Part shown: positions 3,649 to 30,594 of the stretch, one piece after another
Layout: every line of letters starts with the position of its first letter
Position numbering within the stretch: the stretch's first letter is position 1
NCBI GenBank assembly: GCA_964503975.1
Contig: CAZDCI010000003.1
Location: 1-49,913, forward strand
Reading direction: 5' to 3'
DNA from: Candidatus Woesearchaeota archaeon
Lineage (GTDB): Archaea > Nanobdellota > Nanobdellia > Pacearchaeales > GW2011-AR1
Length of the DNA stretch: 49,913 nt
Notes under the pieces: model-generated
Database searches by the model: none
What the model saw: the letters and a program-made list of their open reading frames with translations, nothing else
Told to the model about the DNA's origin: nothing
Translations under genes and position numbers: made by a program

Positions 3649-3707
3649 AACTCTGAAACTCACCACTCCTGATAAAAACTTATAAACTTGTTTTATTTTC
3701 GTGTTAA

Positions 3708-5270
3708 ATGGATATTAAGGAAGAGTTGGCTAAAATAAAATTCTTTGATATTAAGCCAAATCTTGAAAATCTTAAAGATAATGAAAAGCAGGCGCTAACG
3801 CTCTGTATTGAAGCTTCAAAAATTCTTGACAGGCTTTTTTTGAAACAAGTTTGTGGGGATAAGTTAGATCATTACTTAAAGACAATAAATAATTCTTCTG
3901 ATAAAGAATTTATTAAAAAATTCTTTAAGATTAACGGAGGTCCTTGGAGTAGATTTCATGACGACAAGCCCTTTATTAAAGGTGTTGGGACAAAACCAAA
4001 AGGAGTTTCATTTTATCCAGAAGATCTGACTCTCGAAAAGTTTGACCAGTGGCTAAAAGAACACCCAGAAGACAAAAAAGCTTTTGAAAGCACTACCACC
4101 GTCATAAGAAGAAATAAAGAAGGTAATGGTTTAATTGCAATTCCTTATAGTGAGCTTTTTAAAGAAGATTTGAAAAAAGTCAGCAAACTTATTTCACAGG
4201 CTTCAGATCTGTTAAAGAAAGGACCCTTGCACACCTATCTAAAATCCTTATCAAAATCACTTTTAACAAACACCTATAAAGATACAGATATTGCTTGGGT
4301 AAAAACAGATGGTTCTCCTTTTGAAATGGTCTTAGGGCCGATAGAAGCTTACGAAGACAAGTTTAAGGGATTTAAAGCTACGTTCGAATCATTTATAGGA
4401 ATTCCGAATAAGGAAACAACCGAATATCTTGAAACTTTTAAAGAGCATGTTCACGAGCTTGAAGAAGAGCTTGCCAACCAGATTGGATATGAACCTAAAA
4501 AAACAGAAATTCCAATGACTGTGTTTCAAGATGTTTTCCGTTCAGGTGAAGCTGCGGTTGGAAGACAATTTGTTGCAGCTAATTTGCCAAACGACAGACA
4601 AATTCATGAGAAATATGGTTCAAAAAAAGTTTTTTCAGAAACAATGATGAAAGCTAAATCAGATTATCTGGGCAGTAAGGTTGCAGAAAAGCTTTTGCCA
4701 GAAGAAGATTCAAAACTTGTTGATTTCAATGCAAGGCTCTTGTTTGTCCTTGCTCATGAAATATCCCATGGTATAGGTCCGGGAATTGTTGAAAAACAAG
4801 GAGAAAAAATTGTAATAGAAAAGCTGTTGGGAAATTACCATTCTTCTCTTGAAGAATGTAAAGCAGATTGCCTTGGGATGATTTTTATTAATTTCCTTAT
4901 CAAAAAAGAAATCCTTTCCGAGGATATAATGAAACCAATAATCTTGAGTGAAATAATGGCGCATTTTTCAGGGTGGCGCAGCGATTTTACAGGGGCCCAC
5001 AATCTTGCTGGCTTATTGGAATATGACTACCTAAAAAAGAATAATGCTGTTGTTTGTGATATGGTTAATGGAAAAATATCAATCGATATAGAAAAAGCTT
5101 ATCTTGCTTTTGAAATGCTTGCATATGATATAATGAAAATACAAAGACAAGGTAATTATGAGGAAGCAAAAAAGTTCATTGAAAATCACAACAAGCCGCA
5201 TGAAGAAATAAAAATCTTGCTTAAAAAATTAAAGGATATCCCTCTGGAAGTTTATCCTGTTTTTGAATGA
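3708..5270 (+). CDS. Peptidase family M49 (dipeptidyl-peptidase III-like) zinc hydrolase
   Basis: INGGPW, GPIEAYED, AANLPND, HEISHG and LEECKAD zinc ligands. Confidence 0.85.
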   Translation: MDIKEELAKIKFFDIKPNLENLKDNEKQALTLCIEASKILDRLFLKQVCGDKLDHYLKTINNSSDKEFIKKFFKINGGPWSRFHDDKPFIKGVGTKPKGVSFYPEDLTLEKFDQWLKEHPEDKKAFESTTTVIRRNKEGNGLIAIPYSELFKEDLKKVSKLISQASDLLKKGPLHTYLKSLSKSLLTNTYKDTDIAWVKTDGSPFEMVLGPIEAYEDKFKGFKATFESFIGIPNKETTEYLETFKEHVHELEEELANQIGYEPKKTEIPMTVFQDVFRSGEAAVGRQFVAANLPNDRQIHEKYGSKKVFSETMMKAKSDYLGSKVAEKLLPEEDSKLVDFNARLLFVLAHEISHGIGPGIVEKQGEKIVIEKLLGNYHSSLEECKADCLGMIFINFLIKKEILSEDIMKPIILSEIMAHFSGWRSDFTGAHNLAGLLEYDYLKKNNAVVCDMVNGKISIDIEKAYLAFEMLAYDIMKIQRQGNYEEAKKFIENHNKPHEEIKILLKKLKDIPLEVYPVFE

Positions 5271-5386
5271 TTTAATACATGAAAAATCCAAGACATTACC
5301 AATCTCTATTAACTTATTCTTTAGAAGAACTCCGGATAAACCACTCTCCTAATAAATTATATAAACGAAGGCTTTCTTGAAATTTT

Positions 5387-6190
5387 ATGAAATTTTACTC
5401 TCACTCTAAGCTTTCTACTTTTGAGAAATGCAAACTTAAATACAAATTCAGATACATAGACAAAATCATTCCTGATGTTGAAAAAAGCATTGAAGCTCAC
5501 TTAGGAAGCAGCGTTCATAGTGCTCTGGAATGGCTTTATAAACAAGTTACAAACAAAGAACCTGGTGGCTCAAATAAGGTTCCTGAACTTGACGAGCTAA
5601 TATCTTATTACTCTGAAAAATGGAAAGAAACATTTTCTCCTGAAATGATTATTGTAAAACCGGGATTGAAACATGGAGATTACTTCAATAAAGGAATCCA
5701 TTTCTTGATAGATTATTATCTTGAAAACCGGCCTTTCAATGACAACACTATAGATATTGAAAAAAAGATACTTATTGATTTAGATGAAAACACAAAACTA
5801 ATAGGTTTCATTGACCGTCTTGTTCATGATATTGAAAACGATTCTCTTGAAATACATGACTATAAGACAGGCGAAAGCCAGCCCCTTCATGATCACGGAG
5901 AAAAAGACAGGCAACTGGCATTATATTCAATAGCAATAAAAGAAAACTTTGGTGAAGAAAAAGATGTTAAACTAGTATGGCATTTTCTCGCGCACAAAAA
6001 AAAACTCGTATCTAAAAGAACAAACGGGCAGCTTGAAAACTTAAAACGCGAAACTCTTGAGTTGATTCGCGAAGTTGAAAACACTAAAGCATTCCCTCCG
6101 ACAAAATCACGACTTTGTGATTGGTGTGAATACAAAAGCATTTGCCCCGCGTGGGGAAATTCACCTAAGGGTGCTGAAAGAAAAAATTAA
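5387..6190 (+). CDS. PD-(D/E)XK nuclease, RecB/Cas4-like
   Basis: YSHSKL..C, GFIDRL, DYKTG, QLALY, C-terminal CDWCEYKSIC. Confidence 0.9.
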   Translation: MKFYSHSKLSTFEKCKLKYKFRYIDKIIPDVEKSIEAHLGSSVHSALEWLYKQVTNKEPGGSNKVPELDELISYYSEKWKETFSPEMIIVKPGLKHGDYFNKGIHFLIDYYLENRPFNDNTIDIEKKILIDLDENTKLIGFIDRLVHDIENDSLEIHDYKTGESQPLHDHGEKDRQLALYSIAIKENFGEEKDVKLVWHFLAHKKKLVSKRTNGQLENLKRETLELIREVENTKAFPPTKSRLCDWCEYKSICPAWGNSPKGAERKN

Positions 6191-7900: not shown

Positions 7901-10900
7901 TCATCCGTTGCCGTTCTCAGCTTCAGGAACCTTAACCAAATCAGTAACTTTATCCCCGGGCTGAAGCTTTACTATTTTTACGCCACGAGTTGCACGGCCC
8001 ATCACACGAATGTTTTTCAGGGTGGTGCGAATAACCATACCTTTTGAGGTTGTTATGATTATACTATCATCATCGCTTACAGAGCCCGTAGTCACTAAAT
8101 TTCCTGTTTTGTTAGAAACTTTAAGGTTTATTACTCCCTTGCCTCCGCGTGAAATTTTTCTGTAATTCTTTACAAAGGTTCTTTTCCCGTAACCTTTCTC
8201 AGTTATTGACAATATGGCTTTTTCTTTCAAAACATCCAAACTGACGACTTCATCATCTTTTCCCAGCTTAATTCCAATAACCCCGTAAGACGAACGTCCC
8301 ATATCTCTGACTTCATTTGATGAAAATCTTATTGCTTGTCCTTTTTTTGTTGCAAGGAAAACTTCATCTCCATTATCCAAAACCTGCACATCTATGAGCT
8401 TGTCCATTTCCTTCCCGGCACTCACAGGTAACTTGATGGCTTTAATTCCTCCTTTACGGGGACGTGAAAACTTGCTTAAAGAAATGCGCTTGACCTGTCC
8501 TTTTTTTGTAACCATAAATAAAAATCCTTCAAACTTACCTACCGAAATGACACTCGTTATCTTTTCATTTTTTAAATTCAAGACATTAACTATTGCTTTT
8601 CCTTTGCTGTATCTTTTAACCTCGGGAATGTCATACGCTTTTAACCATAAAACCCTGCCACGTGAAGTAAAAAACATAAGGTAATCATGAGTTGAACACG
8701 TGATTAGTTGTTTGACAAAATCTCCTGTTGCAAGGTTGCTTCCTATGACTCCTTTTCCTCCCCTTCGCTGTTCTTTGTATGTATTCAAATCTATACGTTT
8801 GCAATATCCTTTTTCGGTGATGGTAATAACTACATCTTTTTTCTGAACCATATCTTTCTCAGAAATATTTTTTATCTTATCCAGCACTTCAGTTTTTCTT
8901 TCATCCCCATATTTTTTCCTGAGTTCTTTAACTTCTTTGACAATTATTTTCAAAACTTCTTTCACACTGCCAAGAATCTTTTCATACTCTGAAATGGAAG
9001 ATTTAAGTTCTTTTTCTTCTTTTTTCAGTTTATTTTGCTCAAGAGAAGTAAGCTGCTGTAAACGGGTTTCCAGAACAGCTTTTGCCTGCCTTTTAGAAAG
9101 CTTGAACTTTTTAATAAGACCCCCCTCTGCTTCTGAAGTACTTTTAGATTTTTTAATGTAATCTATTACCTTGTCTATGTTTTTCAAGGCTATCAAAAGC
9201 CCTTCGACAATTTCAAGTCTGTCCTTAGATTTTTTAAGCTCGTACTCAGTCCGTTTAGTGATTATCTTTTTACGATACTTTACATATTCTGAGACTATGT
9301 CTTTCAAATTGAGAACCTTTGGCTCTCCTCCGACCAAAGCAAGCATCTTAACGTTAAAATAATCCTGCAAACGCGTATACTTGTAAAGTGAATTTATTAC
9401 AAACTTAGGATTGGTTCCTTTTTTCAATTCAAGAACTATTCTTATCTTTCCCTTTGAGCTTTCGTCTCTCAGATCTGTAATGTTTTTTATCTTCTTATTC
9501 TGAACAATTTTAGCTATCTGCTCTATCAAAGTTGTTTTGTTTAGCATATAAGGAATTTCAGTAATTACAACCGCATCTTTTTTCTTAACTTTCTCTGCCT
9601 TTGCCTTACCCCTCATTGTTAATCTCCCTCTGCCAGTTTCGTAAAGCCGTCGCATATCTCCAGTCACGTAACCTCCTGTAGGAAAATCCGGACCCTTGAC
9701 AATCTTGTTCAGTTGCTTCACTGTTACGTCCTGATTGTCTATGTAAGCCATAATTGCATCGCACACCTCGTTCAGATTATGGGGAGGAATATTTGTGCTC
9801 ATTCCTACCGCAATTCCTGTAGCTCCGTTAAGTATCAAGGCCGGAAGCTTTCCTGGCAACAGGTCAGGTTCTTTGAGAGAGTTGTCAAAATTAGAAGAGA
9901 AAGGGACTGTTTCCTTATCAATGTCTTCCATTATCTCCGAAGATATCGGCATCAGCCTCGCTTCTGTATATCTCATAGCAGCCTGAGGATCTCCGTCGAT
10001 TGAATTGTGGACAAAAATACCTGATGCCAAAGCAAAATTGTGTGTTTTATCAATAGTAAGATCATAAACATCTTCAGACTCATCTAAAAACTCTTTTTTT
10101 ATAACCTTATGGTTAGAGTTAATTTCTAACAAGACCAAGTTTTTGTCGCCCTTGAAATATTTTTCGACTCCTAAATCCCATGAAGTAAAACTTTTTATTC
10201 TAAAAACATCTCTCCTGATCTTTTCATAATTTTCTTTATTTAAATCAAATTTATTATCTATTAAATACCTACATATTCTAATAAATTTCTTTCTTCCTGT
10301 TAAATTAGTTCTTCTTCTTTTATTAGATGCAACTATTTTTTTATTGAAAAGTTTCTTATAATGCGGATCCTTCCACATCCTTCTCATGGTAATTGAAGCT
10401 CTAACCCTTCTTTTTTCAATTACACCAGGGTTATTTTTAAGGTATTCTTTATTTACTTCACTTAAGAATTTTTTCATTTTCTTTCTGTATGAAGATTTCT
10501 TCCAATTTTTCAGATTCCTTTCACACATCCTTTTAGAATAATTTTTCTTGTTTTGGGGATTGGCCCAAAATTTTTTTCTTCCCTCATCAAGTTTTCTTCT
10601 ATATTCCTTATCTGTTTTATGTCTTTTAGAAGCAAATTCATTATGTGTTCTCCAATGTTCCTTCCACTTCATCCTTTGGATATTATCTGGATTATTATTA
10701 AGTTTATTAAAATCTATATGATGTCTTATTCTTCCCGCCCGTTTTGGGTAAACATCCTTCCCTAAATTCCATTCATCTGATAAGACGTGCACAAAATCCC
10801 ATGAATTTGTTTTTGGTTGAAAAACCATATTATATCCAACTAACTTAGGATTTGAGTTATCTTTTTCAGTAGAAATTTTTGAATAAAGAGGCATTAACGA

Positions 10901-11554
10901 ATCTCCAGAAACAAGATCTCTGGCTTTTTTATATTTACCATTTTTTAACATAAATTTATGGTTTAAAGTGCACTTTATTTCTTCACCATTATCCAAAACC
11001 ACTTTCATAATCTTTGCTTTTTTTCTAGTCAAGCGGGGGTTCTTGATTTCTGCTATCTTTATTTTTTTATCATCAACAGTGAATGTAAAATTCTTTTTTC
11101 CTTTTTTGTGTTCTTTAACTAATTCACCAAAACTCAAATTTCTTCCATCTGCCAATGCAACTTTTGTATCTTTAGTAAAGCAACCAAAATTTCCTTGTCC
11201 AAAAACAAAAGGATATCTTAAAGAAAAGTCCTGAGCCATCCTAACTAAAGCATCATAAACAGCGGTATCCCCGTGGGGATGGAACTTACCTAAAACCTCT
11301 CCGACAATTCTCGCGGATTTTTTCGTCTGACTTCCTGGTTTCAAACCAATTTGGTGCATTGCATATAAAATACGTCTCTGAACAGGCTTTAAACCATCTT
11401 CAACAGTGGGAATAGCTCTTGAAACTATAACCGACATCGCGTAATCAAGATATGCTTTTTTCATCTCTCCTGATATCTCCGTGTTGATTATGCTTTTATC
11501 TTCTTCAGGTACTTCAAGTACTTCAGGTTCTTTGGTTTTTTTCTTTGGTGTCAT
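7901..11554 (-). CDS. gyrA: DNA gyrase subunit A (intein-containing)
   Basis: [26 protein letters not shown], catalytic AAMRYTE, GyrA-box QRRGGKG. Confidence 0.97.
10004..11182 (-). mobile_element. Intein (393 aa) with HNH homing endonuclease in GyrA
   Basis: Starts CFTKDTKV after GNFG; block B CTLNHKF; ends VYDLTI..HNFAL.SGIFVHN before Ser; internal [14 protein letters not shown]. Confidence 0.95.
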
Positions 11555-22623: not shown

Positions 22624-22824
22624 TTAAGACTTATTTAAATTTTCTTGATTTATATAAAAGATATTACCCCAAACTTCATCTTTCTTATTGTCCCGCAATT
22701 CTTGCATTTTTTCTTTTTGAATTTCTTTAAGAAATTCATCACTATTAGTTTTATTATCTGTAATCTTATCTAAATTAAAAACCTTTTTAGAAGTAGCTTC
22801 CTGTTTGTTGTTTTCTTTCATCAA
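22624..22824 (-). CDS. Small hypothetical protein, possibly an antitoxin remnant
   Basis: 66 aa with NKKDEVW; overlaps the end of the upstream gene. Confidence 0.35.
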   Translation of the reverse strand: MMKENNKQEATSKKVFNLDKITDNKTNSDEFLKEIQKEKMQELRDNKKDEVWGNIFYINQENLNKS

Positions 22825-23875
22825 GTTTACGTTTTATGTAAATTATAATTATGATTATCAAGATTATTAAAATCAATATAATCAAGAATAGAACCAAACG
22901 TCCAAATATGCTTGTTGGTATTCTTTCCACAACCTCAAAATACGCGCTTGAAGGTGCAACCCCGTTAGGATAGATAAGCTCAAGTCCAATTATGTAATCT
23001 CCTAAAGGAAGCTTTCCTGTGCTAAAATCACGCCTTAAATTTATCTGTTCCGTGACTAAAAGAGTTTCTGACTTAGTTAAGTAATTATTATTCGCATAAT
23101 CTTTTATTACAAAATTAAGAGTTACGTCCAGCCTCGGATCTTCCCCGAAAGGAATCAGTGTTACAAGAGTTTCCAAATCCCCTCCCTGTTCTACCTGATA
23201 GTTTGGATTTAAAACTACAATGTTAGAGTCAAACAACAGCAATTCTGTCTGAACATTTAAAGATACAAGAACCTCATATCCTCCCACAAGTATTTTCCCT
23301 GTAAAAATTCCTGTTTCATTTGTGGCTACAAAAATCACATTAAAAGTTTCTGTTTCCTCCGGTTCAATAGTCAGGTTTGTTTCTCCAAGAATTACTCTGT
23401 TGTCTAAATTTGTTTGGCTTATGAAAATTGTTTGCGTTGTCGTTTCTAAATTTGTAACACTTATTGTTCTCTCGGTGTTTGTGTTCACTGCAAGATTTAT
23501 GTTAAACTCTGTAGGCTCAACCTTTAGGTTTGCAGAAGGGGTTACTGCTCCGCCACCCCCATCACTCGGTTCCGTCGGTTCTTCGGCCTCTTCAATTTGA
23601 CAGGTAGAACTACATCCGTCTCCATCTACAGTATTCCCGTCATCACACTGCTCACCTAAACCAGTATCTACAACTCCGTCCCCACAAATACCTCCAAAGA
23701 AAAATCCTTCAACATACCTGTCCGGATTGAGAATGATGTTTCCTGTTCCTCCTGAGTTTATTGAGATTACATCTGCTGAAATAAAAGATGAAAAAAGGAT
23801 TGTTAATACAACAAAAAATGCTAAAAGGATGTTCAACTTAAACAAACTGCAACAAGTAATCTTCTTTACTTTCAT
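22787..23875 (-). CDS. Membrane-anchored surface protein with a Myxococcus-type Cys-rich repeat (DUF4215-like) and Ig-like domains
   Basis: Signal peptide; CGDGVVD...EQCDDGNTVDGDGCSSTCQIE; C-terminal transmembrane helix followed by KRK. Confidence 0.85.
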   Translation of the reverse strand: MKVKKITCCSLFKLNILLAFFVVLTILFSSFISADVISINSGGTGNIILNPDRYVEGFFFGGICGDGVVDTGLGEQCDDGNTVDGDGCSSTCQIEEAEEPTEPSDGGGGAVTPSANLKVEPTEFNINLAVNTNTERTISVTNLETTTQTIFISQTNLDNRVILGETNLTIEPEETETFNVIFVATNETGIFTGKILVGGYEVLVSLNVQTELLLFDSNIVVLNPNYQVEQGGDLETLVTLIPFGEDPRLDVTLNFVIKDYANNNYLTKSETLLVTEQINLRRDFSTGKLPLGDYIIGLELIYPNGVAPSSAYFEVVERIPTSIFGRLVLFLIILILIILIIIIIIYIKRKLDERKQQTGSYF

Positions 23876-23892
23876 CAAACAATAAAAGAAAA

Positions 23893-23920
23893 TTCGTTAA
23901 TAAATTTAATTATGATGAAA
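23893..23920 (+). repeat. dif-like site 1
   Basis: TTCGTTAATAA-ATTTAA-TTATGATGAAA. Confidence 0.65.
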
Positions 23921-23953
23921 CATTTTACCTTAAAGATTGGTAAAGAGTAAAGA

Positions 23954-24196
23954 ATGAAAAATAGTAAGATTTTAAAAGAAGAAAAGCCTTTTGAGAATAA
24001 GAAAAAAGAGATTGAGATGGTTAAAAGGAAAAATGGGGGGTTAAAACTCCTTAAAATCGGCGGAGGTGTTTTATTGGTTTTAGGAGGTATTTCTGGTTTT
24101 TCTTCTTATTTAATACAATCAAATTTTTTGGGAGTTTTGATTTCTGCTATTGCATTTTTCTTCGGTTTATGGTTAATTGGACAGACTATTGAATAA
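23954..24196 (+). CDS. Small two-TM membrane protein
   Basis: Two hydrophobic segments. Confidence 0.6.
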   Translation: MKNSKILKEEKPFENKKKEIEMVKRKNGGLKLLKIGGGVLLVLGGISGFSSYLIQSNFLGVLISAIAFFFGLWLIGQTIE

Positions 24197-24197
24197 A

Positions 24198-24467
24198 ATG
24201 AAAGATATAATAAAGAAGAATAAACTGGATTTAACTTATAATAAATATTCTCAGTTTTTTAATACAACAATAATAATTTTCTCTACTATTACAATAGGAA
24301 TTTTAATTGCCCTTTTAACTGAACAGATTAAAATAGGTAAAAATATACCTTTTATTTTTATTGCCCTTCTTTTTATAACCATTCTTATTTTCTCCATCTA
24401 TTCTCTAATAAAATTTCATAACGAAATGGAGAGAATAATAAAAAAAATAGATAAGTTAAAGGTCTAA
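24198..24467 (+). CDS. Small two-TM membrane protein
   Basis: Likely start ATG 24198 (MKDIIKKNKLDL), just after the upstream stop; two hydrophobic segments. Confidence 0.6.
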   Translation: MKDIIKKNKLDLTYNKYSQFFNTTIIIFSTITIGILIALLTEQIKIGKNIPFIFIALLFITILIFSIYSLIKFHNEMERIIKKIDKLKV

Positions 24468-24531
24468 AGTTATTTATTACTCATCTTAATCAAATCCGGC
24501 CACTTATTTCCATTTAATCTAATATTTGTTG

Positions 24532-24921
24532 TTAATTCGGATGGTGCTCTCTCTGATTTCTTACGTAATCTCTCATATCATCGATTTGCACAAATCCTAC
24601 TGAAGTCCAGAATTTTCCTCGACTCCAAAGATGTCCTTTCGGATATCTCAGTCTTGCTTTTGGATGATATCTGAAAAACAAGTATGCAAATCTTCCTTTT
24701 AGAAGTTGCATTGCCTTGCTTGGACTCATTGTTCCTGGCAATCCAGCGACAACATGTACATGGTCAGGCATCACTTCAATCTCCAAAATTTTTATTTTAT
24801 GTTCTGTTGCAGATTTTCTTATACAAGCTTCTGCAAGATTCTTGTACTTAAACTTGGCAAACATTTTGTAGCGATATTTTGGACACCATTCAAAATGCCA
24901 AATCGAAATTTGTTTTTCCAT
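24532..24921 (-). mobile_element. tnpA: IS200/IS605 family transposase TnpA (no tnpB)
   Basis: WHFEWCPKYR, HUH motif DHVH, LKG, LWSRG, catalytic YVRNQ. Confidence 0.92.
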
Positions 24922-24980
24922 TTTTTCTCCGAAAGATTTAATTAGTTTAGAAAGCTCCGACTATTATTGGAGTTTTCAAG

Positions 24981-25061
24981 GAGCCTAGTATCTAGGCTCT
25001 TATAATCAAGATTTGTAGAAATAAAAATGTGCGGGCTCTCGCTACACATTAAAATGTGTAG
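24981..25061. repeat. Hairpins upstream of tnpA (probable IS200 end)
   Basis: GAGCCTAG-TAT-CTAGGCTC (24981-24999) and CTACACATT-AA-AATGTGTAG (25042-25061). Confidence 0.55.
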
Positions 25062-25111
25062 ATTTCCCACCCGAAGATTAAAAAATAAAAAGCAATCCTT
25101 TAACGCCATTT

Positions 25112-25139
25112 ACAGTTAATAAATTTAATTATGTTAAAG
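25112..25139 (+). repeat. dif-like site 2
   Basis: ACAGTTAATAA-ATTTAA-TTATGTTAAAG. Confidence 0.65.
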
Positions 25140-25150
25140 ATGAATGAAAG

Positions 25151-25771
25151 TTACAGCCTCCTTAATTCCTTTATAAGTTCTTCTTTTTTAAGTTTAAATT
25201 CTCGCAGGGTCAATTTTAAAGAGTTATAATCTTTAAAGTTTCTTACAATAACAATTAAATCTTTAATGTAGTTGCTCAAAGAATTATCTTTTAGAATAGA
25301 AGAATATTTATTAAGATTAATATCTGAAAAAAACAAAATAGAAAGTATGTCAATCAGATCTTTTTCACCTTTTACGGAATTTTTTCTGTCCTTATAGGCT
25401 CCTTGTTTAAGAATCAATAAAGATTCAGGAGACGCTACTTTAAAACCTTCAACTTTTTCTGAATAATTTTTCAATTTTTCCGGAGAAATTGTAAGCTCGG
25501 AAAAGTGTTCAACATAAATATCTATGTCTATCTCTCCTTCTTTAACTTCGTATTTTTTCAGCCTATTGTTTTTAGACATGTTTTCCGATTTCAACTTTTG
25601 CAATTCTTTTATACTTACAACAATATCCACATCTTTAGATTTTTGTTGTTTTGTCCAAAGCCAGATTGCCCACCCGCCTATAAGTATAAAATCGTATTTC
25701 TTTCTAAACTCTTGGAGAATTTTCCAACTTTTTTCAGTCAAATATGAATTCCAAAATTCCTTATTTTTCAT
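25151..25771 (-). CDS. Nucleotidyltransferase-fold toxin (AbiEii-like)
   Basis: LIGGWA, SKDVDI, LLILK, KGEKDLID. Confidence 0.75.
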   Translation of the reverse strand: MKNKEFWNSYLTEKSWKILQEFRKKYDFILIGGWAIWLWTKQQKSKDVDIVVSIKELQKLKSENMSKNNRLKKYEVKEGEIDIDIYVEHFSELTISPEKLKNYSEKVEGFKVASPESLLILKQGAYKDRKNSVKGEKDLIDILSILFFSDINLNKYSSILKDNSLSNYIKDLIVIVRNFKDYNSLKLTLREFKLKKEELIKELRRL

Positions 25772-25781
25772 TTTGATTTTT

Positions 25782-26387
25782 TCATTTTTCTTTTTGTGCG
25801 AGTTTACTTTTCAACGAATCTAAAAAATCTTTAGCGTACCATTCCTTAACATTCCACAAATCAACAAATATTTGAGATAAGGGGGTTTCCTTGTAAAGAT
25901 CAAGTGAAGAATCCTTTTTCAAAACAAAAAAATTAGGATTTTCTGAATTTTCTTTAAAACCAAAATCAGAAATTCTTTTTTTTATTTCTTCAAGTTCTTT
26001 TTCGTCTGCATAAACATAAACCTCAGAATAATCTGCAGGAACATCGTTAAATTTAAACTTGTACGCTGTGTAAACAGTGTAATAAACCTTTGGTAAGACT
26101 CTTTCTATTTCTCTCACACTGGCTTTAACTCTTGCTTTAAAAAAAATATCTTCTTCCAAATTCCTAACCGAAGCCCACAAATAAAGAATTTTATCAGTAT
26201 CTAAAACCTGGAAGCTTCTTTGTTTTATTTTAACTGCGCCCATTGAATCCAATTTTTTCAATACTGAATTTACTATACTTAAAGAAATTTTTAACCTTTT
26301 AGAGAGCTCCGACTGTGTTAAGGCTCTTTCATTCTTTTCAATTACTCTAAAAAGAATTTCTCTGTAAACTTCTTCCTGCCTTTTCAT
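25782..26387 (-). CDS. Winged-HTH antitoxin (AbiEi-like)
   Basis: TQSELSKRLKISLSIVN HTH; C-terminal SQIFVDLWN. Confidence 0.75.
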   Translation of the reverse strand: MKRQEEVYREILFRVIEKNERALTQSELSKRLKISLSIVNSVLKKLDSMGAVKIKQRSFQVLDTDKILYLWASVRNLEEDIFFKARVKASVREIERVLPKVYYTVYTAYKFKFNDVPADYSEVYVYADEKELEEIKKRISDFGFKENSENPNFFVLKKDSSLDLYKETPLSQIFVDLWNVKEWYAKDFLDSLKSKLAQKEK

Positions 26388-26500
26388 TTTATCTTTCTAA
26401 GTAAAGGATAAGTTATTTATAAATCTTTCTTTATTTAGTGAAAGATATATAAATAAAAAAATAAAATAAAGAAACTCGCTAAAATCAAAAAGGAATAAAA

Positions 26501-26528
26501 TTCGTTAATAAATTTAATTGCCTAAGGC
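26501..26528 (+). repeat. dif-like site 3
   Basis: TTCGTTAATAA-ATTTAA-TTGCCTAAGGC. Confidence 0.55.
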
Positions 26529-26529
26529 T

Positions 26530-27123
26530 TCAAATCTTACCATACAGCGTCTTAACTCTTTTTCTAAACTCTAAAGGATATTTCTTAAGATATTTCTCAA
26601 GTTTTTTGACTTCAATCCTATTTTTAAAATTTTTCAAAGCCTCTTCACTTAAATTCTCATTAAAATAAACCATATCAATAAATGTTTTTTCAACACTAGA
26701 GTAGGGAAGAGCGACTCCTTCCTGAAGATGTTCTTCGTACCCAAAAAGATATTTTTTCTTAATTCTTCTTATCAGAATATTTTTTCCCATAACTTTTCTA
26801 ATTCCTTGCCTTACTTTCCTTGACGTCAGTATTACCGGAATTGTTTCCTGCTCCCATAAATCATAAAAACTCATCGCATCCTGTAAACCTAAGTATGCGG
26901 GTTTGAACGCAAAAACAGACAATGAAATATTGTCTCTTGAGGTATAATATCCTTTAGTTAGTCTTTTTATTTTTCCTTTGGACAGCAAGTAACCCAGTAT
27001 TTGTTTTGCGTATTCGCTTGATTTCTTTTTGTTTTTGACAATTCTTTCAACCGAACCGTATTCGACCACGGGGCTTTTTTCAAACAATTTTTTAACCTTT
27101 TCCATATGTTTTTCTTTTCCCAT
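26530..27123 (-). CDS. AbiEi-family antitoxin (type IV toxin-antitoxin)
   Basis: GKIKRLTKGYY, PAYLGLQDAM, SSVEKTFID. Confidence 0.85.
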   Translation of the reverse strand: MGKEKHMEKVKKLFEKSPVVEYGSVERIVKNKKKSSEYAKQILGYLLSKGKIKRLTKGYYTSRDNISLSVFAFKPAYLGLQDAMSFYDLWEQETIPVILTSRKVRQGIRKVMGKNILIRRIKKKYLFGYEEHLQEGVALPYSSVEKTFIDMVYFNENLSEEALKNFKNRIEVKKLEKYLKKYPLEFRKRVKTLYGKI

Positions 27124-27770
27124 TATAATATCCTTTTTATGTAATTTAGCATATCTTCAACTCCCGGAACAATCCCTTCTGTAACTAAAACTTTAAGTTC
27201 TTCCCTGTCCACAGGCTTCTTAAAATTTTTAATGAGTTCATTTAACTCCTTTTTTACATCCCTGACATTTTTAACACATCTCATCAAAAAGAAAACATCA
27301 TATAAATCCCTGATTTTCCTTCTTTTAAGATAAGCTTCCACTTTTTCTTTAACCAGCTCTTCAGGAGTTAAAGTATAAACTGTCAAATAATTTCCTTCAG
27401 CTTTCTCATACTCTTTCAAAATTTTTTTCTTGGCGACATTTTTAAACAATGCTTCAAACCCGACTATTTCTCTTTCAAACTTAAGAGTAGAATAAAGGCT
27501 GTTTTTTCCTATTTTCTTTTTTTCAACAGAAAATCCTTTTTTTGAAGCCTCTTCAAAAAATTTATTTATTTTTTCTGTGTTTTTTTCTATATAAAAATCC
27601 AAATCCTCCGAGAATCTTTTTCCATCGTAGCATCGCCATATGGCCGTTCCCCCGTGAAGCACAGCATTACTAAAAACACCATAAAGCGTTTCAACTAAAA
27701 CATCCTGCGCTTTCGCTACATCCTTATGAGTTTTCTTTTTCAATCTCAAAATTAAAGGTATTTCAGCCAT
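27123..27770 (-). CDS. AbiEii-family nucleotidyltransferase toxin
   Basis: HGGTAIWR, RFSEDLDF, EKVEA, RDLYD. Confidence 0.9.
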   Translation of the reverse strand: MAEIPLILRLKKKTHKDVAKAQDVLVETLYGVFSNAVLHGGTAIWRCYDGKRFSEDLDFYIEKNTEKINKFFEEASKKGFSVEKKKIGKNSLYSTLKFEREIVGFEALFKNVAKKKILKEYEKAEGNYLTVYTLTPEELVKEKVEAYLKRRKIRDLYDVFFLMRCVKNVRDVKKELNELIKNFKKPVDREELKVLVTEGIVPGVEDMLNYIKRIL

Positions 27771-27788
27771 ATTTTCACAATCAACTAA

Positions 27789-27808
27789 AGTTATATATAT
27801 GTATAACT
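27789..27808. promoter_or_regulatory. Inverted repeat operator of the AbiE operon
   Basis: AGTTATA-TATATG-TATAACT between the TATA box and the start codon. Confidence 0.45.
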
Positions 27809-27852
27809 ATGGTTTACTTTATAAATCTTAAGGTTCAGAGAGAAAATTAAAT

Positions 27853-27880
27853 TTCGTTAATAAATTTAATTATGTTAAAA
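27853..27880 (+). repeat. dif-like site 4 (most canonical)
   Basis: TTCGTTAATAA-ATTTAA-TTATGTTAAAA; right arm matches the E. coli XerD arm TTATGTTAAAT at 10/11. Confidence 0.7.
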
Positions 27881-28135
27881 AACAAAAAGTAAATCTAAAT
27901 TTACATGTTTAACAAAGAACCATCCCCATCATGCTTCCATGAGGGAGGAACTAAATGCTATCTTTTTCTAGAAGTTGTTAATAAATTAGAATCATTTGAA
28001 GAAACTTCAAATCCGGGCATATGGGCCGATTGCGGTCTTTGCATCGTTTTTCTCAGAATTAGGTTTCCAAGACACCATCACCTATAAAAACATATTTTTC
28101 CCAATTTTTAAAGAGTTATAATCTATCCACTCATC

Positions 28136-28225
28136 CATCCACTCATAAAGTTATAAAGAATCAAATTGCCTTCAATGACATCCTTGAGTTGTCGTTGAAG
28201 AGTCGCAGTTTGCAACTGAACACGT
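28136..28225 (-). repeat. Orphan 3' end and trailer of the pilin-like gene 36668-38149 (distal copy)
   Basis: 28136-28204 matches 36632-36700 with 1 mismatch; encodes TCSVANCDSSTTTQGCH* versus QCEVPDCDSSTTTQGCH*. Confidence 0.92.
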
Positions 28226-28407
28226 GAAAGATTCATTCTGAATATTCTTCAGAGAATCTTTTCTTTATAGAATCACGAATTTTCCTTGCGGTGGTTTCAT
28301 CATCCACCTCAATATCAATGGAATATTAATCCAAAGTTTATGGTTTAGAATTTACATATAGCCGATGAGATAGAAAATTATTTAAATAGTAATTACATAG
28401 TAATTAC

Positions 28408-28821
28408 GTGGAAAAACAAAGGGTTGGTTTTGGAAATTCTGTCGTTAAACAAGGGAATTCTCTAACTGTGAGGATTCCTAAAATGGCCAGTAATGCACTG
28501 AATTTAAAGGAAGGTGACAAAATAAAAGTCGTGATTTCAAGACCAAAGGGATACTTTTTTTCTGACAGGCAGATAAAAAAAATAATTAAAGAGTGTATGA
28601 AAACTAAAAAATTGAAAAGTTTTGGTGAGGAAAAAATAGGCGTGTTTATATCTCTTATGAATTTAATAATAAACAATAGAGTTACAGAAAATATAAAAGA
28701 AAAAGGGCAAGAAAAAAGACTTACTAAACAGTTCGGGAAAAAGTTTGTGAAAGAATACAAAGATTTCATAAAAACCCTTGAAAAATACCCAAAAATAACT
28801 TCACTATTCAAAAACCCCTAA
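28408..28821 (+). CDS. AbrB/MazE/SpoVT-domain DNA-binding protein
   Basis: VVKQGNSLTVRIPK..ALNLKEGD. Confidence 0.8.
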   Translation: MEKQRVGFGNSVVKQGNSLTVRIPKMASNALNLKEGDKIKVVISRPKGYFFSDRQIKKIIKECMKTKKLKSFGEEKIGVFISLMNLIINNRVTENIKEKGQEKRLTKQFGKKFVKEYKDFIKTLEKYPKITSLFKNP

Positions 28822-30264
28822 AGGAGACAAATTATCAAAGGAGGAAGGGTTTGCCTCTAAAATAGATACATATGTTTTTAGGTCTTCTTCAATTTCCAAT
28901 CTTTTTTTAGAGCAATGTTTTCTTTTTCTTTCTATAGAAATACTGCCCCCTTTTTTAGCGTTATTCAGGCATAAATTACAAAAGCGCGAAGCCCAGCAAG
29001 ATAAGCAATCATTACTGCTTACAGAAAAATATTCATTAATTATTCCAATAACTTTCTCCTCGTCCAATCCCTTATTCACATCTCCAATCTCAAAAAATTC
29101 TCCCACTTTTTCACACGGATAAAATTTTCCTTCGCCAGAAACAAAAATTCTCTTTAACCCAGGAACACACATTCCGTTGGGCTTTATTCTCGGCGTATTG
29201 CCAAGAGGCCTAAAGTGAATGTTTTTTATCCTTTTCCTGAAAAGAGAAGATAAAAAACTATCTTCTCTTCCTTCTGATTTTATTCTAATATAATCTTCTC
29301 TAAATTGTGCAAGAGTAAGATTGAATTCGTGGTTTTCTTCTTGACTTACAGGGTGTTTATCAAAAAAGGTTGTGTCAAAAGGATCTATATTGCTGAAAAA
29401 ACAAAGATGACCCTTCACCAACTCATCCTCAGAAAAAAACTTTCTGATCTTCTTTAAGTCGCTATGAGGAGAAACAGTGATGGAAAAATTTACATGCCTA
29501 TCATAATAGTTAGGGTCAAAATTCTTTAATCTTCTAAGGGTTCTGTAAACCCTCTTGAAACTGGGATTTTTTCCTACATCTAACCTGTACAAATCATGGA
29601 TATCTTCAGGCCCATCTAAACTAACAGTCAAGATGACGTTGTTAGAAACAAGAAATTCTACGTCCTCTTCATCTATTAAAGTACCGTTTGTAGTTATCGC
29701 CCAAACCCTTTCACGACCCTCAAATTTTTCCATGGAATATGTTATTACTCTCTTAATTAAATCAAACTCTAAAAAAGGCTCTCCACCATAAAACCCTATA
29801 TAAATAGTTGGAGATTCCTTAGATACAGAACCAAAAAAATCTATGGCTTTTCTAACAATTCCCATGTCTATTGAATTATTTGAATGTGTCCTACGATATT
29901 TGTAAGATCCGGAATATGCGCAATACTCACACCTTAAATTGCATTTTTCAGTTAAATTAAAAACCATTTCTTGAATACCGTTCCTTAACCTATGTCTTAT
30001 TTCATCTTCTTCAATCGGAAAACCCATTTCATTAAAGCGATATGTTGAGAAGATTCCTTTTTCAGTCAATCTAGATAAAGACGACACTCTTTTCGCTACT
30101 TGATCTGTACTTAGTTCATCTACACCTATTTCCTTTTTTATAAGAGCATAAGTCAAAGGATCTGTCTTAATAATTTCATTGCTTGACGCATCATAAATAT
30201 AGTGCCCTTTTAAGGTTTCAAAGGAAAGAATCAAGGGATTTTTCACTATTCTTTCTAAATTCAT
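28804..30264 (-). CDS. Radical SAM/SPASM peptide maturase (CcpM-like)
   Basis: CNLRCEYC, FYGGEP, TTNGTL, SLDGP, SPASM CVPG...YPCEK...CLSCWASRFCNLC. Confidence 0.9.
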   Translation of the reverse strand: MNLERIVKNPLILSFETLKGHYIYDASSNEIIKTDPLTYALIKKEIGVDELSTDQVAKRVSSLSRLTEKGIFSTYRFNEMGFPIEEDEIRHRLRNGIQEMVFNLTEKCNLRCEYCAYSGSYKYRRTHSNNSIDMGIVRKAIDFFGSVSKESPTIYIGFYGGEPFLEFDLIKRVITYSMEKFEGRERVWAITTNGTLIDEEDVEFLVSNNVILTVSLDGPEDIHDLYRLDVGKNPSFKRVYRTLRRLKNFDPNYYDRHVNFSITVSPHSDLKKIRKFFSEDELVKGHLCFFSNIDPFDTTFFDKHPVSQEENHEFNLTLAQFREDYIRIKSEGREDSFLSSLFRKRIKNIHFRPLGNTPRIKPNGMCVPGLKRIFVSGEGKFYPCEKVGEFFEIGDVNKGLDEEKVIGIINEYFSVSSNDCLSCWASRFCNLCLNNAKKGGSISIERKRKHCSKKRLEIEEDLKTYVSILEANPSSFDNLSPLGVFE

Positions 30265-30271
30265 TTTAAGA

Positions 30272-30475
30272 TTAATCTACAATATATGCAACAGATGCCA
30301 TAACTATGGAGGCCGCAGAAAGGACTAATTTATCACACCCACAATCACATATGCAAAATCCTACTGAATCATAAGAAAAGGTATTTTCATAAGCTCCCCT
30401 AAAACAAGGTTCAAGAACGGGCTCTTCACCTGTCAGAAGACCCTCATCCTTTAGCGAATCTTCTATATTTTTCAT
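30272..30475 (-). CDS. Cys-rich RiPP precursor peptide
   Basis: Acidic leader then CICDCGC; 7 nt upstream of the radical SAM gene on the same strand. Confidence 0.75.
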   Translation of the reverse strand: MKNIEDSLKDEGLLTGEEPVLEPCFRGAYENTFSYDSVGFCICDCGCDKLVLSAASIVMASVAYIVD

Positions 30476-30504
30476 TCATTTTTTCAAATTAAAATATATA
30501 TTTA

Positions 30505-30594
30505 AACTTTATTATAACCCATCCACTCATAAAGTTATAAAGAATCAAATTGCCTTCAATGACATCCTTGAGTTGTCGTTGAAGAGTCACAATC
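30505..30594 (-). repeat. Orphan 3' end and trailer of the pilin-like gene 36668-38149 (proximal copy)
   Basis: 90 bp matching 36617-36706 with 3 mismatches; encodes DCDSSTTTQGCH*. Confidence 0.92.

What the first reader, a model, noticed from the sequence alone, without database searches (positions are those of the whole stretch)
23893..27880. Array of four Xer/dif-like sites delimiting toxin-antitoxin modules
Seen: four direct 11-6-11 sites at 23893, 25112, 26501 and 27853 share an invariant GTTAATAA-ATTTAA-TT core. Two carry TTATGTTAAA, the canonical XerD arm (E. coli dif: GGTGCGCATAA-TGTATA-TTATGTTAAAT). Each interval (1.2-1.4 kb) holds one self-contained module: two membrane genes plus IS200; HTH plus nucleotidyltransferase; AbiEii plus AbiEi. 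Stop codons lie 1-11 nt from sites 2 and 3. Identical 6-bp central regions with reassorted arms are what serial Xer-mediated integration would give (IMEX or pdif-module logic). Caveat: site 1 also contains a TTTATTAA box at promoter spacing for gene 22787-23875. The genes after sites 3 and 4 have their own TATA boxes, so promoter function does not explain those copies.
Basis: partly seen in the sequence, partly recalled or inferred. Interest (0 to 1): 0.8.

Follow-up and report, generated by a model that had tools for sequence, protein, structure and literature searches.

The report
Promoter copies bordering inserted gene cassettes
Four identical copies of one gene's core promoter mark the borders of three small, mostly toxin-antitoxin-type gene cassettes inserted one after another in front of a surface-protein gene of a tiny DPANN archaeon; they look like insertion scars, not Xer/dif sites.

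Summary
An exact 16-mer, GTTAATAAATTTAATT, stands at 23896, 25115, 26504 and 27856. These are the only four copies (up to 1 mismatch) in the 658-kb genome.

The Xer/dif reading is not supported. Read on the minus strand, the 16-mer is the BRE/TATA core promoter of the leaderless DUF4215 surface-protein gene. It ends exactly 20 nt before the ATG in 19 of 29 orthologous loci of the genus.

In 6 of 30 such loci the promoter core is repeated 2-4 times in direct order. The repeats bracket small cassettes: AbiE-like, HepT/MNT, ParE, NYN and nucleotidyltransferase genes. One relative shows the empty state.

The same kinds of cassette are flanked elsewhere by direct repeats of 20-120 nt of unrelated sequence. 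This is seen in this genome and in other genera. Those repeats duplicate a gene's 3' end, or its promoter plus first codons.

The repeats therefore look like duplicated target (att-like) sequence left by serial cassette insertion. [quoted passage not shown] The enzyme is unknown.

The scan had already noted this footprint in other DPANN genomes; those are unchecked AI notes. What is new here is a tandem array at one conserved promoter.

The parts
22787..23875 (-). Target gene: DUF4215-family secreted or surface protein, leaderless, ATG at 23875
   Evidence: Pfam DUF4215. An ortholog was found in 33 of 42 genus genomes. The ATG lies 20 nt after the promoter core.
23889..23919 (-). Site 1: the working BRE/TATA core promoter of the DUF4215 gene (16-mer at 23896-23911; minus-strand reading spans -36 to -21)
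23954..24467 (+). Cassette 1 cargo: two small hydrophobic-protein ORFs (23954-24196 and 24177-24467)
   Evidence: There is no significant family hit; 'membrane' is read by eye from the translation.
24532..25083 (-). IS200-type copy inside cassette 1: tnpA at 24532-24921 and a left end reaching to about 25083. No right-end hairpin like that of the second genomic copy was seen.
25115..25138 (-). Site 2: copy of the promoter core plus ATGTTAAA. No start codon stands at the promoter distance.
25151..26387 (-). Cassette 2: wHTH protein (25782-26387) followed by a DUF6036/AbiEii-like nucleotidyltransferase (25151-25771)
26494..26519 (-). Site 3: copy of the promoter core plus the left flank AAAATTC. 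It lies 10 nt from the stop of the upstream gene.
26530..27770 (-). Cassette 3: AbiEii nucleotidyltransferase (27123-27770) plus a conserved 197-aa partner (26530-27123). Its own TATA-like run lies at -30 to -22.
27846..27879 (-). Site 4: the distal copy of the promoter core (core plus ATGTTAAA; left flank AAATTTC)
28135..30588 (.). Neighbouring fourth repeat-flanked block. A roughly 75-nt direct repeat (70 nt exact at 28135-28204 and 30519-30588), unrelated to the 16-mer, brackets a MazE/AbrB-like ORF, a radical-SAM/SPASM peptide maturase (28804-30264) and a Cys-rich 67-aa ORF (30272-30475).

Best explanation
Site 1 is the conserved BRE/TATA core promoter of the leaderless DUF4215 surface-protein gene.

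Sites 2-4 are copies of that core, 16-26 nt long. They were left at the borders of three small cassettes inserted one after another into this promoter region. Each insertion duplicated the target, or brought a copy of it, so the DUF4215 gene always keeps a promoter. The older copies remain as borders, and possibly as extra promoters.

The space in front of this gene is a cassette hot spot in the genus. The cargo is selfish or defence-type: toxin-antitoxin pairs and nucleotidyltransferases.

What is shown and what is inferred:
- Shown: the repeats, their promoter identity, the hot spot, the cargo, and the unrelated repeats around like cassettes elsewhere.
- Inferred: that the repeats arise by insertion with target (att-like) duplication. 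This would be Campbell-type joining of a circular cassette that carries a copy of the site.
- Unknown: the enzyme. It could be a tyrosine recombinase acting in trans, short-homology recombination, or the still unexplained 'long target duplication' route.
For: Promoter identity:
- 597 ORFs of this genome show a TATA signal at -29 to -22 and an A-rich BRE at -36 to -32 from the ATG. The 16-mer spans -36 to -21 of the DUF4215 gene.
- The core, at up to 1 mismatch in 15 positions, ends exactly 20 nt before an in-frame ATG in 19 of 29 ortholog loci. These loci were found by protein search, so the motif did not select them.
- 15 of the 30 motif sites held from relatives also have an ATG at a 20-nt gap, before unrelated genes.

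Hot spot:
- 2-4 direct copies bracket small modules in 6 of 30 loci: G000, G019, G028, G062, G018 and G015.
- The cargo is NYN, HepT/MNT, HTH-NTase, DUF2080-NTase and ParE/antitoxin.
- The empty state is seen in G009: upstream gene stop, 4 nt, core, 20 nt, ATG.
- Orthologues of that upstream gene abut the distal copy in G028 and G062.
- Copies inside one array mostly share genome-specific variants: T-type four times in G000, G-type three times in G019, AAGTGTG-type twice in G028.

Copies 2-4 are not simple promoters:
- None has a start codon at the promoter distance.
- Site 2 faces only the IS200 copy and the 3' ends of oppositely oriented genes.
- AbiEii has its own TATA-like run at -30 to -22.

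The footprint is general and has no common core:
- AbiEii homologues occur in 52 of 401 genomes of the order.
- Of 29 other loci, 5 have exact, non-low-complexity flanking repeats of 20-56 nt and unrelated sequence. These repeats are gene 3' ends or a promoter plus 5' coding sequence. One locus is a three-copy array around AbiE and HicAB.
- None of the 29 loci carries the 16-mer at up to 1 mismatch.
- In this genome two DUF2283-type pairs are flanked by 55-nt and 25(37)-nt repeats. The block next to site 4 is flanked by a roughly 75-nt repeat.

The cassettes are slightly AT-richer than their surroundings: GC 0.29-0.30 against about 0.33.
Against: - No mobility was seen directly. There is no conspecific strain with an empty or differently filled site, and no circle or excision junction. 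The two runs that hold the locus are about 5x Logan contigs in the reference arrangement and have no power.
- The repeat is short (16-26 nt) and is itself a functional promoter motif. Copying by gene conversion, or selection for a strong promoter, could mimic an insertion scar.
- Arrays in G028 and G062 mix two variants of the core. Simple duplication of the resident site does not predict this; imported site copies would.
- The roughly 260-aa NTase cassette family sits in both orientations relative to the sites.
- The control rate of flanking repeats of 20 nt or more in this genome is not zero. I found 8 distinct pairs among 330 half-overlapping windows, and some of those are themselves cassettes.
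- The 'empty' and 'filled' loci belong to different species with 45-65% protein identity, so the borders cannot be aligned base for base.
Confidence: 0.6

Rival explanations
1. Xer/dif-like sites. The 28-bp 11-6-11 sites are bound by the host XerA-type recombinase. The modules entered by serial Xer-mediated integration, as with IMEX elements or Acinetobacter dif modules.
For: - Two tyrosine recombinases pass the XerA equivalog cut-off: 249 and 237 bits against 220.
- The cassettes carry no recombinase of their own.
- The sites are direct repeats with one shared core and reassorted flanks.
- The inner arms read ATAA-N6-TTAT.
- The site is near single-copy and positionally conserved in the genus.
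Against: - Arm complementarity in that register is 7, 4, 4 and 6 of 11. The genome background is 1.5% of positions at 7 or more and 34% at 4 or more. Archaeal dif arms are described as having few or no mismatches (PMC2958812, passages read).
- Promoter use explains the conservation and the fixed 20-nt distance to the ATG.
- TTATGTTAAA occurs 20 times in the genome.
- In single-contig G027 the site lies about 85 kb (16% of 535 kb) from the cumulative-skew minimum and 193 kb from orc1.
- The window shows no skew turning point at the array.
- Like cassettes elsewhere have unrelated flanking repeats.
- No tyrosine recombinase was found in array genomes G019 (90% complete) or G018 (87%).
- G028 and G062 arrays mix ATTTAA and AGTTAA 'spacers'.
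Confidence: 0.1
2. Plain regulatory repeats. Each copy is just the promoter, or an operator for a shared regulator, of its own transcription unit. The copies were made alike by selection or gene conversion and have no role in, and no origin from, recombination.
For: - The core is a bona fide promoter type used before many genes.
- On the minus strand each copy precedes a transcription unit.
- In G015 the distal copy stands 24 nt before the ParDE-like operon's ATG.
- The scan's earlier notes describe ready-made promoter modules in DPANN genomes (unchecked).
Against: - The genome holds 4 exact copies, none at 1 mismatch, and all in one 4-kb stretch. Independent promoters or operators would be degenerate and scattered.
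- Identity extends beyond BRE/TATA in pairs of sites.
- Sites 2-4 have no start codon at the promoter distance, and site 2 has no sense gene to drive.
- In other genera the repeat is a gene's 3' end or includes 20 codons of coding sequence, which no promoter model explains.
Confidence: 0.17
3. An integron-like cassette array (CALIN), with the repeats serving as attC sites.
For: - The array consists of short, mostly same-direction cassettes rich in toxin-antitoxin genes.
- The core begins GTTAA.
Against: - There is no conserved single-strand hairpin. Eight 120-nt folds (four sites, both strands) gave z from -2.1 to +1.2 with no shared structure.
- The conserved block is only 16-31 nt.
- GTTAATA does not fit GTTRRRY (consensus recalled, not from a call).
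- Both recombinases match the integron-integrase models only in two stretches that skip the middle of the profile, where I recall the IntI-specific domain to lie. Both stay below those cut-offs.
- AbiE cassettes elsewhere do not carry the motif.
Confidence: 0.03

Closest known systems
'Insertion with long target duplication' of restriction-modification gene complexes in bacteria (Furuta, Abe and Kobayashi 2010, PMC2853133, passages read; Nobusato et al. 2000, cited there, not read)
   Same: A selfish gene unit with no mobility gene is flanked by direct repeats that correspond to one copy in the empty site. Repeat length is variable and each sequence is locus-specific. The repeats often overlap the 3' end of a gene. 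The mechanism is unknown.
   Different: - This is an archaeon. That survey reports that no archaeal case survived its selection.
- The cargo here is toxin-antitoxin or nucleotidyltransferase genes, not R-M.
- The repeat is short (16-26 nt; their threshold was over 30 bp) and is a core promoter.
- Three insertions in tandem at one site, recurring in several species.
att-flanked integrase-less elements (CIMEs) and tandem accretion of integrative elements at one attB (recalled, no paper read here)
   Same: Elements without an integrase are bordered by attL/attR-like direct repeats. Repeated integration at the same site gives arrays with a site copy between neighbours.
   Different: No integrase-bearing partner element or tRNA-type att is seen at this locus. 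The cassettes are minimal operons (1.2-1.4 kb). The repeats around like cassettes elsewhere share no core.
Acinetobacter dif modules (pdif sites, XerC/XerD) and IMEX elements (PMC13141974, PMC6449649, PMC7399989: search listing and abstracts only; IMEX recalled)
   Same: Small modules, toxin-antitoxin modules among them, lack a recombinase and are delimited by 28-bp sites that a host recombinase is thought to use.
   Different: dif modules are bounded by inversely oriented XerC-XerD sites on plasmids (recalled from the titles and abstracts). Here the sites are direct and chromosomal, lack consistent dyad symmetry, and coincide with a promoter.
Integron cassette arrays and CALINs in Archaea (Ghaly et al. 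2022, PMC9668308, passages read)
   Same: Cassette arrays enriched in toxin-antitoxin genes. [quoted passage not shown] Most arrays lack a neighbouring integrase.
   Different: There is no attC-type folded site and no IntI-type integrase. The repeated unit is host promoter sequence.
Archaeal BRE/TATA core promoters of leaderless genes
   Same: Site 1 and its orthologues sit at the genome-wide TATA/BRE position, with the ATG 20 nt downstream.
   Different: Copies 2-4 have no start codon at that distance, and they delimit foreign modules.

Membership tests
Xer/dif site (archaeal XerA type) | Two 11-nt inverted-repeat arms with few mismatches, separated by a 6-nt spacer | tested here: not met
In the genome background, 1.5% of positions score 7 or more and 34% score 4 or more. 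A 10-nt inverted repeat occurs at site 4 only, with a 5- or 7-nt spacer, and is not shared by the other sites or by other genomes.
Xer/dif site (archaeal XerA type) | Single copy near the replication terminus | tested here: not met
   In G027 (a single 535,452-bp contig) the cumulative GC-skew minimum is at about 45 kb and the maximum at about 330 kb. orc1 is at 302 kb and the site at 495.6 kb, about 85 kb from the minimum. The window shows no turning point at the array. Circularity of G027 is not shown, and the skew partly follows gene strand.
Xer/dif site (archaeal XerA type) | A Xer-type recombinase is present in the lineage | tested here: met
   Two ORFs (275 aa on C7, 352 aa on C12) pass the NF040815 XerA_Arch cut-off. 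A roughly 275-290-aa orthologue occurs in many genus members, but none was found in array genomes G019 and G018.
Xer/dif site (archaeal XerA type) | Binding, cleavage and recombination by XerA at the site | not testable with these tools
   This needs purified protein and site oligonucleotides. The published archaeal dif sequences are in figures and supplements that I could not read.
Acinetobacter-type dif modules | Modules bounded by inversely oriented XerC-XerD sites | tested here: not met
   All four copies are direct, on the + strand.
Integron / CALIN | attC: imperfect inverted repeats that fold into a conserved single-strand hairpin | tested here: not met
   ssDNA folds of 120 nt around each site, both strands, gave z of -1.9, +1.2, +0.5 and -2.1 on the + strand and -1.9, +1.2, +0.2 and -1.6 on the - strand, with no common structure. 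No attC model was available.
Integron / CALIN | IntI with the integron-specific additional domain | tested here: not met
   Both recombinases match TIGR02249 and NF011946 only in two stretches that skip the middle of the profile, and both score below those cut-offs.
Archaeal BRE/TATA promoter of a leaderless gene | TATA at about -29 to -22 and BRE just upstream, at a fixed distance from the start codon | tested here: met
   Site 1 fits the genome profile from 597 ORFs. The ATG lies at a 20-nt gap in 19 of 29 ortholog loci and in 15 of 30 sites in relatives. Sites 2-4 have no ATG at gaps of 15-30 nt. Site 2 was checked by script; sites 3 and 4 were read from their printed flanks.
Archaeal BRE/TATA promoter of a leaderless gene | Transcripts start downstream of each copy | not tested
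   No RNA run was available.
Insertion with long target duplication | The flanking direct repeats correspond to a single copy at the empty site of a related genome | tested here: met
   A single copy lies between the upstream gene and the DUF4215 gene in G009 and other relatives. Orthologues of the same upstream gene abut the distal copy in G028 and G062. The comparison is between species, not strains.
Insertion with long target duplication | No mobility gene in the insert | tested here: met
   Cassettes 2 and 3, and the relatives' cassettes, hold only toxin-antitoxin, NTase or NYN genes. Cassette 1 holds an IS200 copy with its own ends.
Insertion with long target duplication | Duplication longer than about 30 bp (criterion of PMC2853133) | tested here: not met
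   Here 16 nt are common to all four copies and 23-26 nt to pairs. The criterion is met at sister loci: 31, 37, 55, about 75 and 114-120 nt.

The most novel reading that the evidence does not exclude
The BRE/TATA core of a conserved surface-protein promoter doubles as the attachment site of an integron-like but integrase-less cassette platform in DPANN archaea. Cassettes would travel between species with one copy of the site; mixed site variants in G028 and G062 hint at imported copies. A host XerA-type recombinase, or a mechanism guided by the promoter-bound TBP/TFB complex, would insert them. Every insertion would re-create the promoter, so the host gene is never silenced.
Probability: 0.15. 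Interest if true: 0.85.

Novelty: new variant of a known kind. Interest (0 to 1): 0.5.

Why it matters
DPANN archaea have tiny genomes and few recognisable mobile elements. How they gain and shuffle accessory genes is poorly understood.

This locus shows one conserved promoter used again and again as a landing place for selfish toxin-antitoxin-type cassettes. The landing site is copied at each border. The same footprint, with other target sequences, surrounds like cassettes across the family.

That points to a general route of gene insertion that needs no recombinase on the cassette. The array gives a compact substrate of four identical sites and three cassettes on which the route could be tested.

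The case is also a caution. AT-rich archaeal promoters can look like dif sites.

Tried and rejected
- Population variation. Two DNA runs hold the locus (0.90 and 0.81 of words) as Logan contigs at about 5x. Listed contigs bridge sites 1, 2 and 3 in the reference arrangement, and none of the listed pieces bridges site 4. No joint links two sites. The joints listed have 21-30-nt sides and come from other organisms or from IS copies. The runs may be the source sample. There is no power either way.
- Metagenome scan for the 21-mer GTTAATAAATTTAATTATGWT. It gave 18 stretches, each with one match, no arrays and no homologue of the window's proteins. These are chance hits in AT-rich DNA.
- Rfam at E up to 5 over 23500-28600. 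Only weak chance hits below their cut-offs.
- IS200 region against plasmids. No match.
- De novo search for a real dif. I took 2747 G027 28-mers with at least 8 of 11 arm complementarity and compared them with G000. This gave 30 conserved hits, none convincing near the skew minimum. One perfect palindrome lies mid-arm.
- Aligning the two DUF2283-type cassettes of this genome to define cassette ends. They are too diverged; only 74 nt align.
- Published archaeal dif sequences. They are not in the text of PMC2958812 or PMC3646895 (figures and supplements), so no direct comparison was possible.
- Literature search for toxin-antitoxin + direct repeats + DPANN + integration. Of 297 papers holding at least 3 of the 4 terms, none of the 12 listed described this.
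- My early idea that IS200 had replaced the left arm of site 2. Rejected: the IS end lies about 30 nt away.
- Link between arrays and recombinase number in the genus. None was seen. Array genomes have 2, 2, 2, 1, 0 and 0 matches (G000, G062, G015, G028, G019, G018), and the assemblies are incomplete.
- The recombinase genes sit among housekeeping-type genes (T2SSF-like, HAD hydrolase, pyrimidine-dimer glycosylase), not in an obvious integrated element.

Full report
**What is there.** The window is contig C3 of a 658-kb, 22-contig, 84%-complete genome. It is an archaeon of the DPANN type. Two recombinases match the archaeal XerA model, and the YchF-related GTPase and Orc1/Cdc6 fit an archaeon.

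The exact 16-mer GTTAATAAATTTAATT stands on the + strand at 23896, 25115, 26504 and 27856. No other copy exists in the genome at up to 1 mismatch. My own count was 4, 0, 8 and 63 at 0, 1, 2 and 3 mismatches, against 0, 0, 3 and 70 for the reversed word. Such a gap between exact copies and the next-best matches indicates copying, not convergence. Sites 1 and 3 share 23 nt and sites 2 and 4 share 24 nt.

The intervals hold these genes:
- two small hydrophobic ORFs plus an IS200 copy;
- a wHTH protein plus a DUF6036/AbiEii-like nucleotidyltransferase;
- AbiEii plus a conserved 197-aa partner without a family hit.

**The core is a promoter.** Upstream regions of 597 ORFs of this genome show TTTAWAAA at -29 to -22 and an A-rich BRE at -36 to -32 from the ATG. 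This is the pattern of leaderless archaeal genes. Read on the minus strand, the 16-mer (AATTAAATTTATTAAC) spans -36 to -21 of the DUF4215-family secreted-protein gene 22787-23875.

In relatives, 30 of the 45 motif matches were held as loci. Of these 30, 15 have an ATG exactly 20 nt after the motif. The genes behind them are DUF4215 orthologues, another secreted family, a pilin-like protein and housekeeping genes.

To avoid choosing loci by the motif, I found DUF4215 orthologues by protein search in 33 of 42 genus genomes. Of 30 loci returned, 29 were scored; my script failed on G019, which I had seen earlier. In 19 of the 29 the core, at up to 1 mismatch in 15 positions, ends exactly 20 nt before an in-frame ATG. 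One more is off by one base, and seven carry another promoter type. So site 1 is an ordinary, conserved core promoter.

**The other copies are not simply promoters.**
- Sites 2-4 have no start codon at the promoter distance.
- Site 2 faces only the IS200 copy and the 3' ends of oppositely oriented ORFs. The IS left end stops about 30 nt short of the site.
- AbiEii has its own TATA-like run at -30 to -22. The wHTH gene has TTTATAAA at -36 to -29 (read).

Whether the copies fire is untested.

**A cassette hot spot.** Direct copies of the promoter core bracket small modules in front of the DUF4215 gene in 6 of 30 loci:

| Genome | Copies | Cargo |
|---|---|---|
| G000 | 4 | the three modules above |
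| G019 | 3 | NYN; HepT/MNT |
| G028 | 3 | HTH-NTase; DUF2080-NTase |
| G062 | 2-3 | NTase |
| G018 | 2 | DUF2080-NTase |
| G015 | 2 | ParE plus antitoxin |

G009 shows the empty state: upstream gene stop, 4 nt, core, 20 nt, ATG. Orthologues of that upstream gene abut the distal copy in G028 and G062. The modules therefore lie inside a duplicated promoter core.

Copies within an array usually share genome-specific variants: T-type in G000, G-type in G019, an AAGTGTG variant twice in G028. G028 and G062 mix variants. That pattern would fit copies imported with a cassette.

**The footprint is general and has no common core.** AbiEii homologues occur patchily, in 52 of 401 genomes of the order. 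In 5 of the 29 other loci the module is flanked by exact direct repeats of 20-56 nt. A sixth repeat is low-complexity and was dropped. All are unrelated to the 16-mer and to each other:
- Three duplicate the last 20-37 nt of a neighbouring gene, stop codon included.
- One is a hairpin-like 29-mer.
- In G148 a 114-120-nt unit stands three times around an AbiE and a HicAB cassette. The unit is a promoter, a leader and 22 codons of a neighbouring gene.

None of the 29 loci has the 16-mer at up to 1 mismatch. The motif therefore belongs to the target, not to the cassette.

Within G000, two DUF2283-type pairs are flanked by 55-nt and 25(37)-nt repeats. Right beside site 4, a roughly 75-nt repeat brackets a radical-SAM peptide-maturase block. 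The background is 8 distinct pairs of 20 nt or more in 330 half-overlapping windows, and several of those are these cassettes.

**Tests of the Xer/dif reading.**
Archaeal dif arms are described as nearly perfect inverted repeats (PMC2958812 and PMC8371274, passages read).
- TTATGTTAAA occurs 20 times in the genome.
- The window shows no skew turning point at the array.
- In the single-contig relative G027 the skew minimum is at about 45 kb and the maximum at about 330 kb. orc1 is at 302 kb, xerA at 296 kb and the DUF4215 promoter at 495.6 kb. The promoter is about 85 kb from the minimum.
- A de novo search for a better dif gave nothing convincing.
- XerA-type genes exist but were not found in the array genomes G019 and G018.

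Tests of the integron reading also failed. The sites have no shared single-strand fold. Neither recombinase matches the middle part of the integron-integrase profiles.

**Most likely mechanism.** Cassettes entered by recombination at, or with duplication of, the promoter core. The DUF4215 gene kept a promoter, and a second copy was left at the far border. Repetition built the array.

This is the footprint described for bacterial restriction-modification units as 'insertion with long target duplication', whose mechanism is unknown (PMC2853133, passages read). That survey found no archaeal case. It also resembles accretion of integrase-less att-flanked elements (recalled). Which enzyme acts is open: a recombinase in trans, short-homology recombination, or something else.

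No direct sign of mobility was obtained. The reads had no power and the metagenome scan gave only chance hits.

**Earlier notes of this scan.** These are unchecked AI notes, read, after I had reached the reading above. They describe the same kind of repeat-flanked, recombinase-less cassettes in other DPANN and Asgard genomes. One of them named the Kobayashi-group papers, which I then read in part. The phenomenon is thus not new to the scan. This locus adds a three-cassette tandem array at one conserved promoter, recurring across species.

**Limits.**
- Empty and filled loci come from different species.
- Several relatives' contigs end within the hot spot.

Noticed in passing
window 28094-28207 and 30478-30591; 28404-30475: A 114-nt direct repeat (83% identity; 70 nt exact at 28135 and 30519) brackets a 2.3-kb block. 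The block holds a MazE/AbrB-like ORF, a radical-SAM/SPASM peptide maturase (CcpM-like, 363 bits, below its cut-off of 500) and a Cys-rich 67-aa ORF directly upstream of it, which is likely a RiPP precursor. It is a fourth repeat-flanked cassette next to site 4.
   Followed up: partly
window 7901-11554 (-): The DNA gyrase subunit A gene carries an intein of about 390 residues. Intein N- and C-terminal splicing regions and the Intein_splicing domain are detected at residues 125-518.
   Followed up: no
window 24532-25083; G000:C12:27773-28322 and G000:C17:19642-19696: There are two IS200-type copies. The second is split over two contig ends and has a CCCCACAC/GTGTGGGG hairpin beyond tnpA. The window copy shows no such right-end hairpin and may be truncated.
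   Followed up: partly
G000:C1:58316-59110 and G000:C2:24529-25195: Two 79-aa + 97-aa pairs (DUF2283 plus a RelE-like or PBECR-like partner; the latter is a weak hit) are each flanked by direct repeats. One repeat is 55 nt. The other is 25 nt exact (37 nt with 1 mismatch) and overlaps the 3' end of a HisRS-like ORF.
   Followed up: partly
L137 (G148:C3) 3635-5941: A three-copy array of a 114-120-nt unit (promoter, leader and first 22 codons of a 132-aa gene) brackets an AbiE and a HicA/HicB cassette in another genus of the family. It is the closest analogue of the array studied here.
   Followed up: partly
G027:C1:175290 and G000:C10:11199-11223: A perfect 11-6-11 palindrome (ATTTATTCAAT-CCCCCA-ATTGAATAAAT) is conserved between the two genomes, 25 of 25 aligned letters. 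It lies mid-arm in the G027 skew plot, and its function is unknown.
   Followed up: no
L183 (G010:C20) and L177 (G020:C8), about 1.1 kb upstream of the DUF4215 ATG: In two relatives the DUF4215 gene has another promoter type, but a motif-like copy (ACTAATAAATTTAATT; GCCAATAAAGTTAATT) lies 1.1 kb upstream. This may be a cassette whose proximal border has changed.
   Followed up: no
window 27844-27871: At site 4 only, the left flank AATTAAATTT is a perfect 10-nt inverted copy of AAATTTAATT inside the core. This gives a head-to-head arrangement of two promoter-like words.
   Followed up: partly
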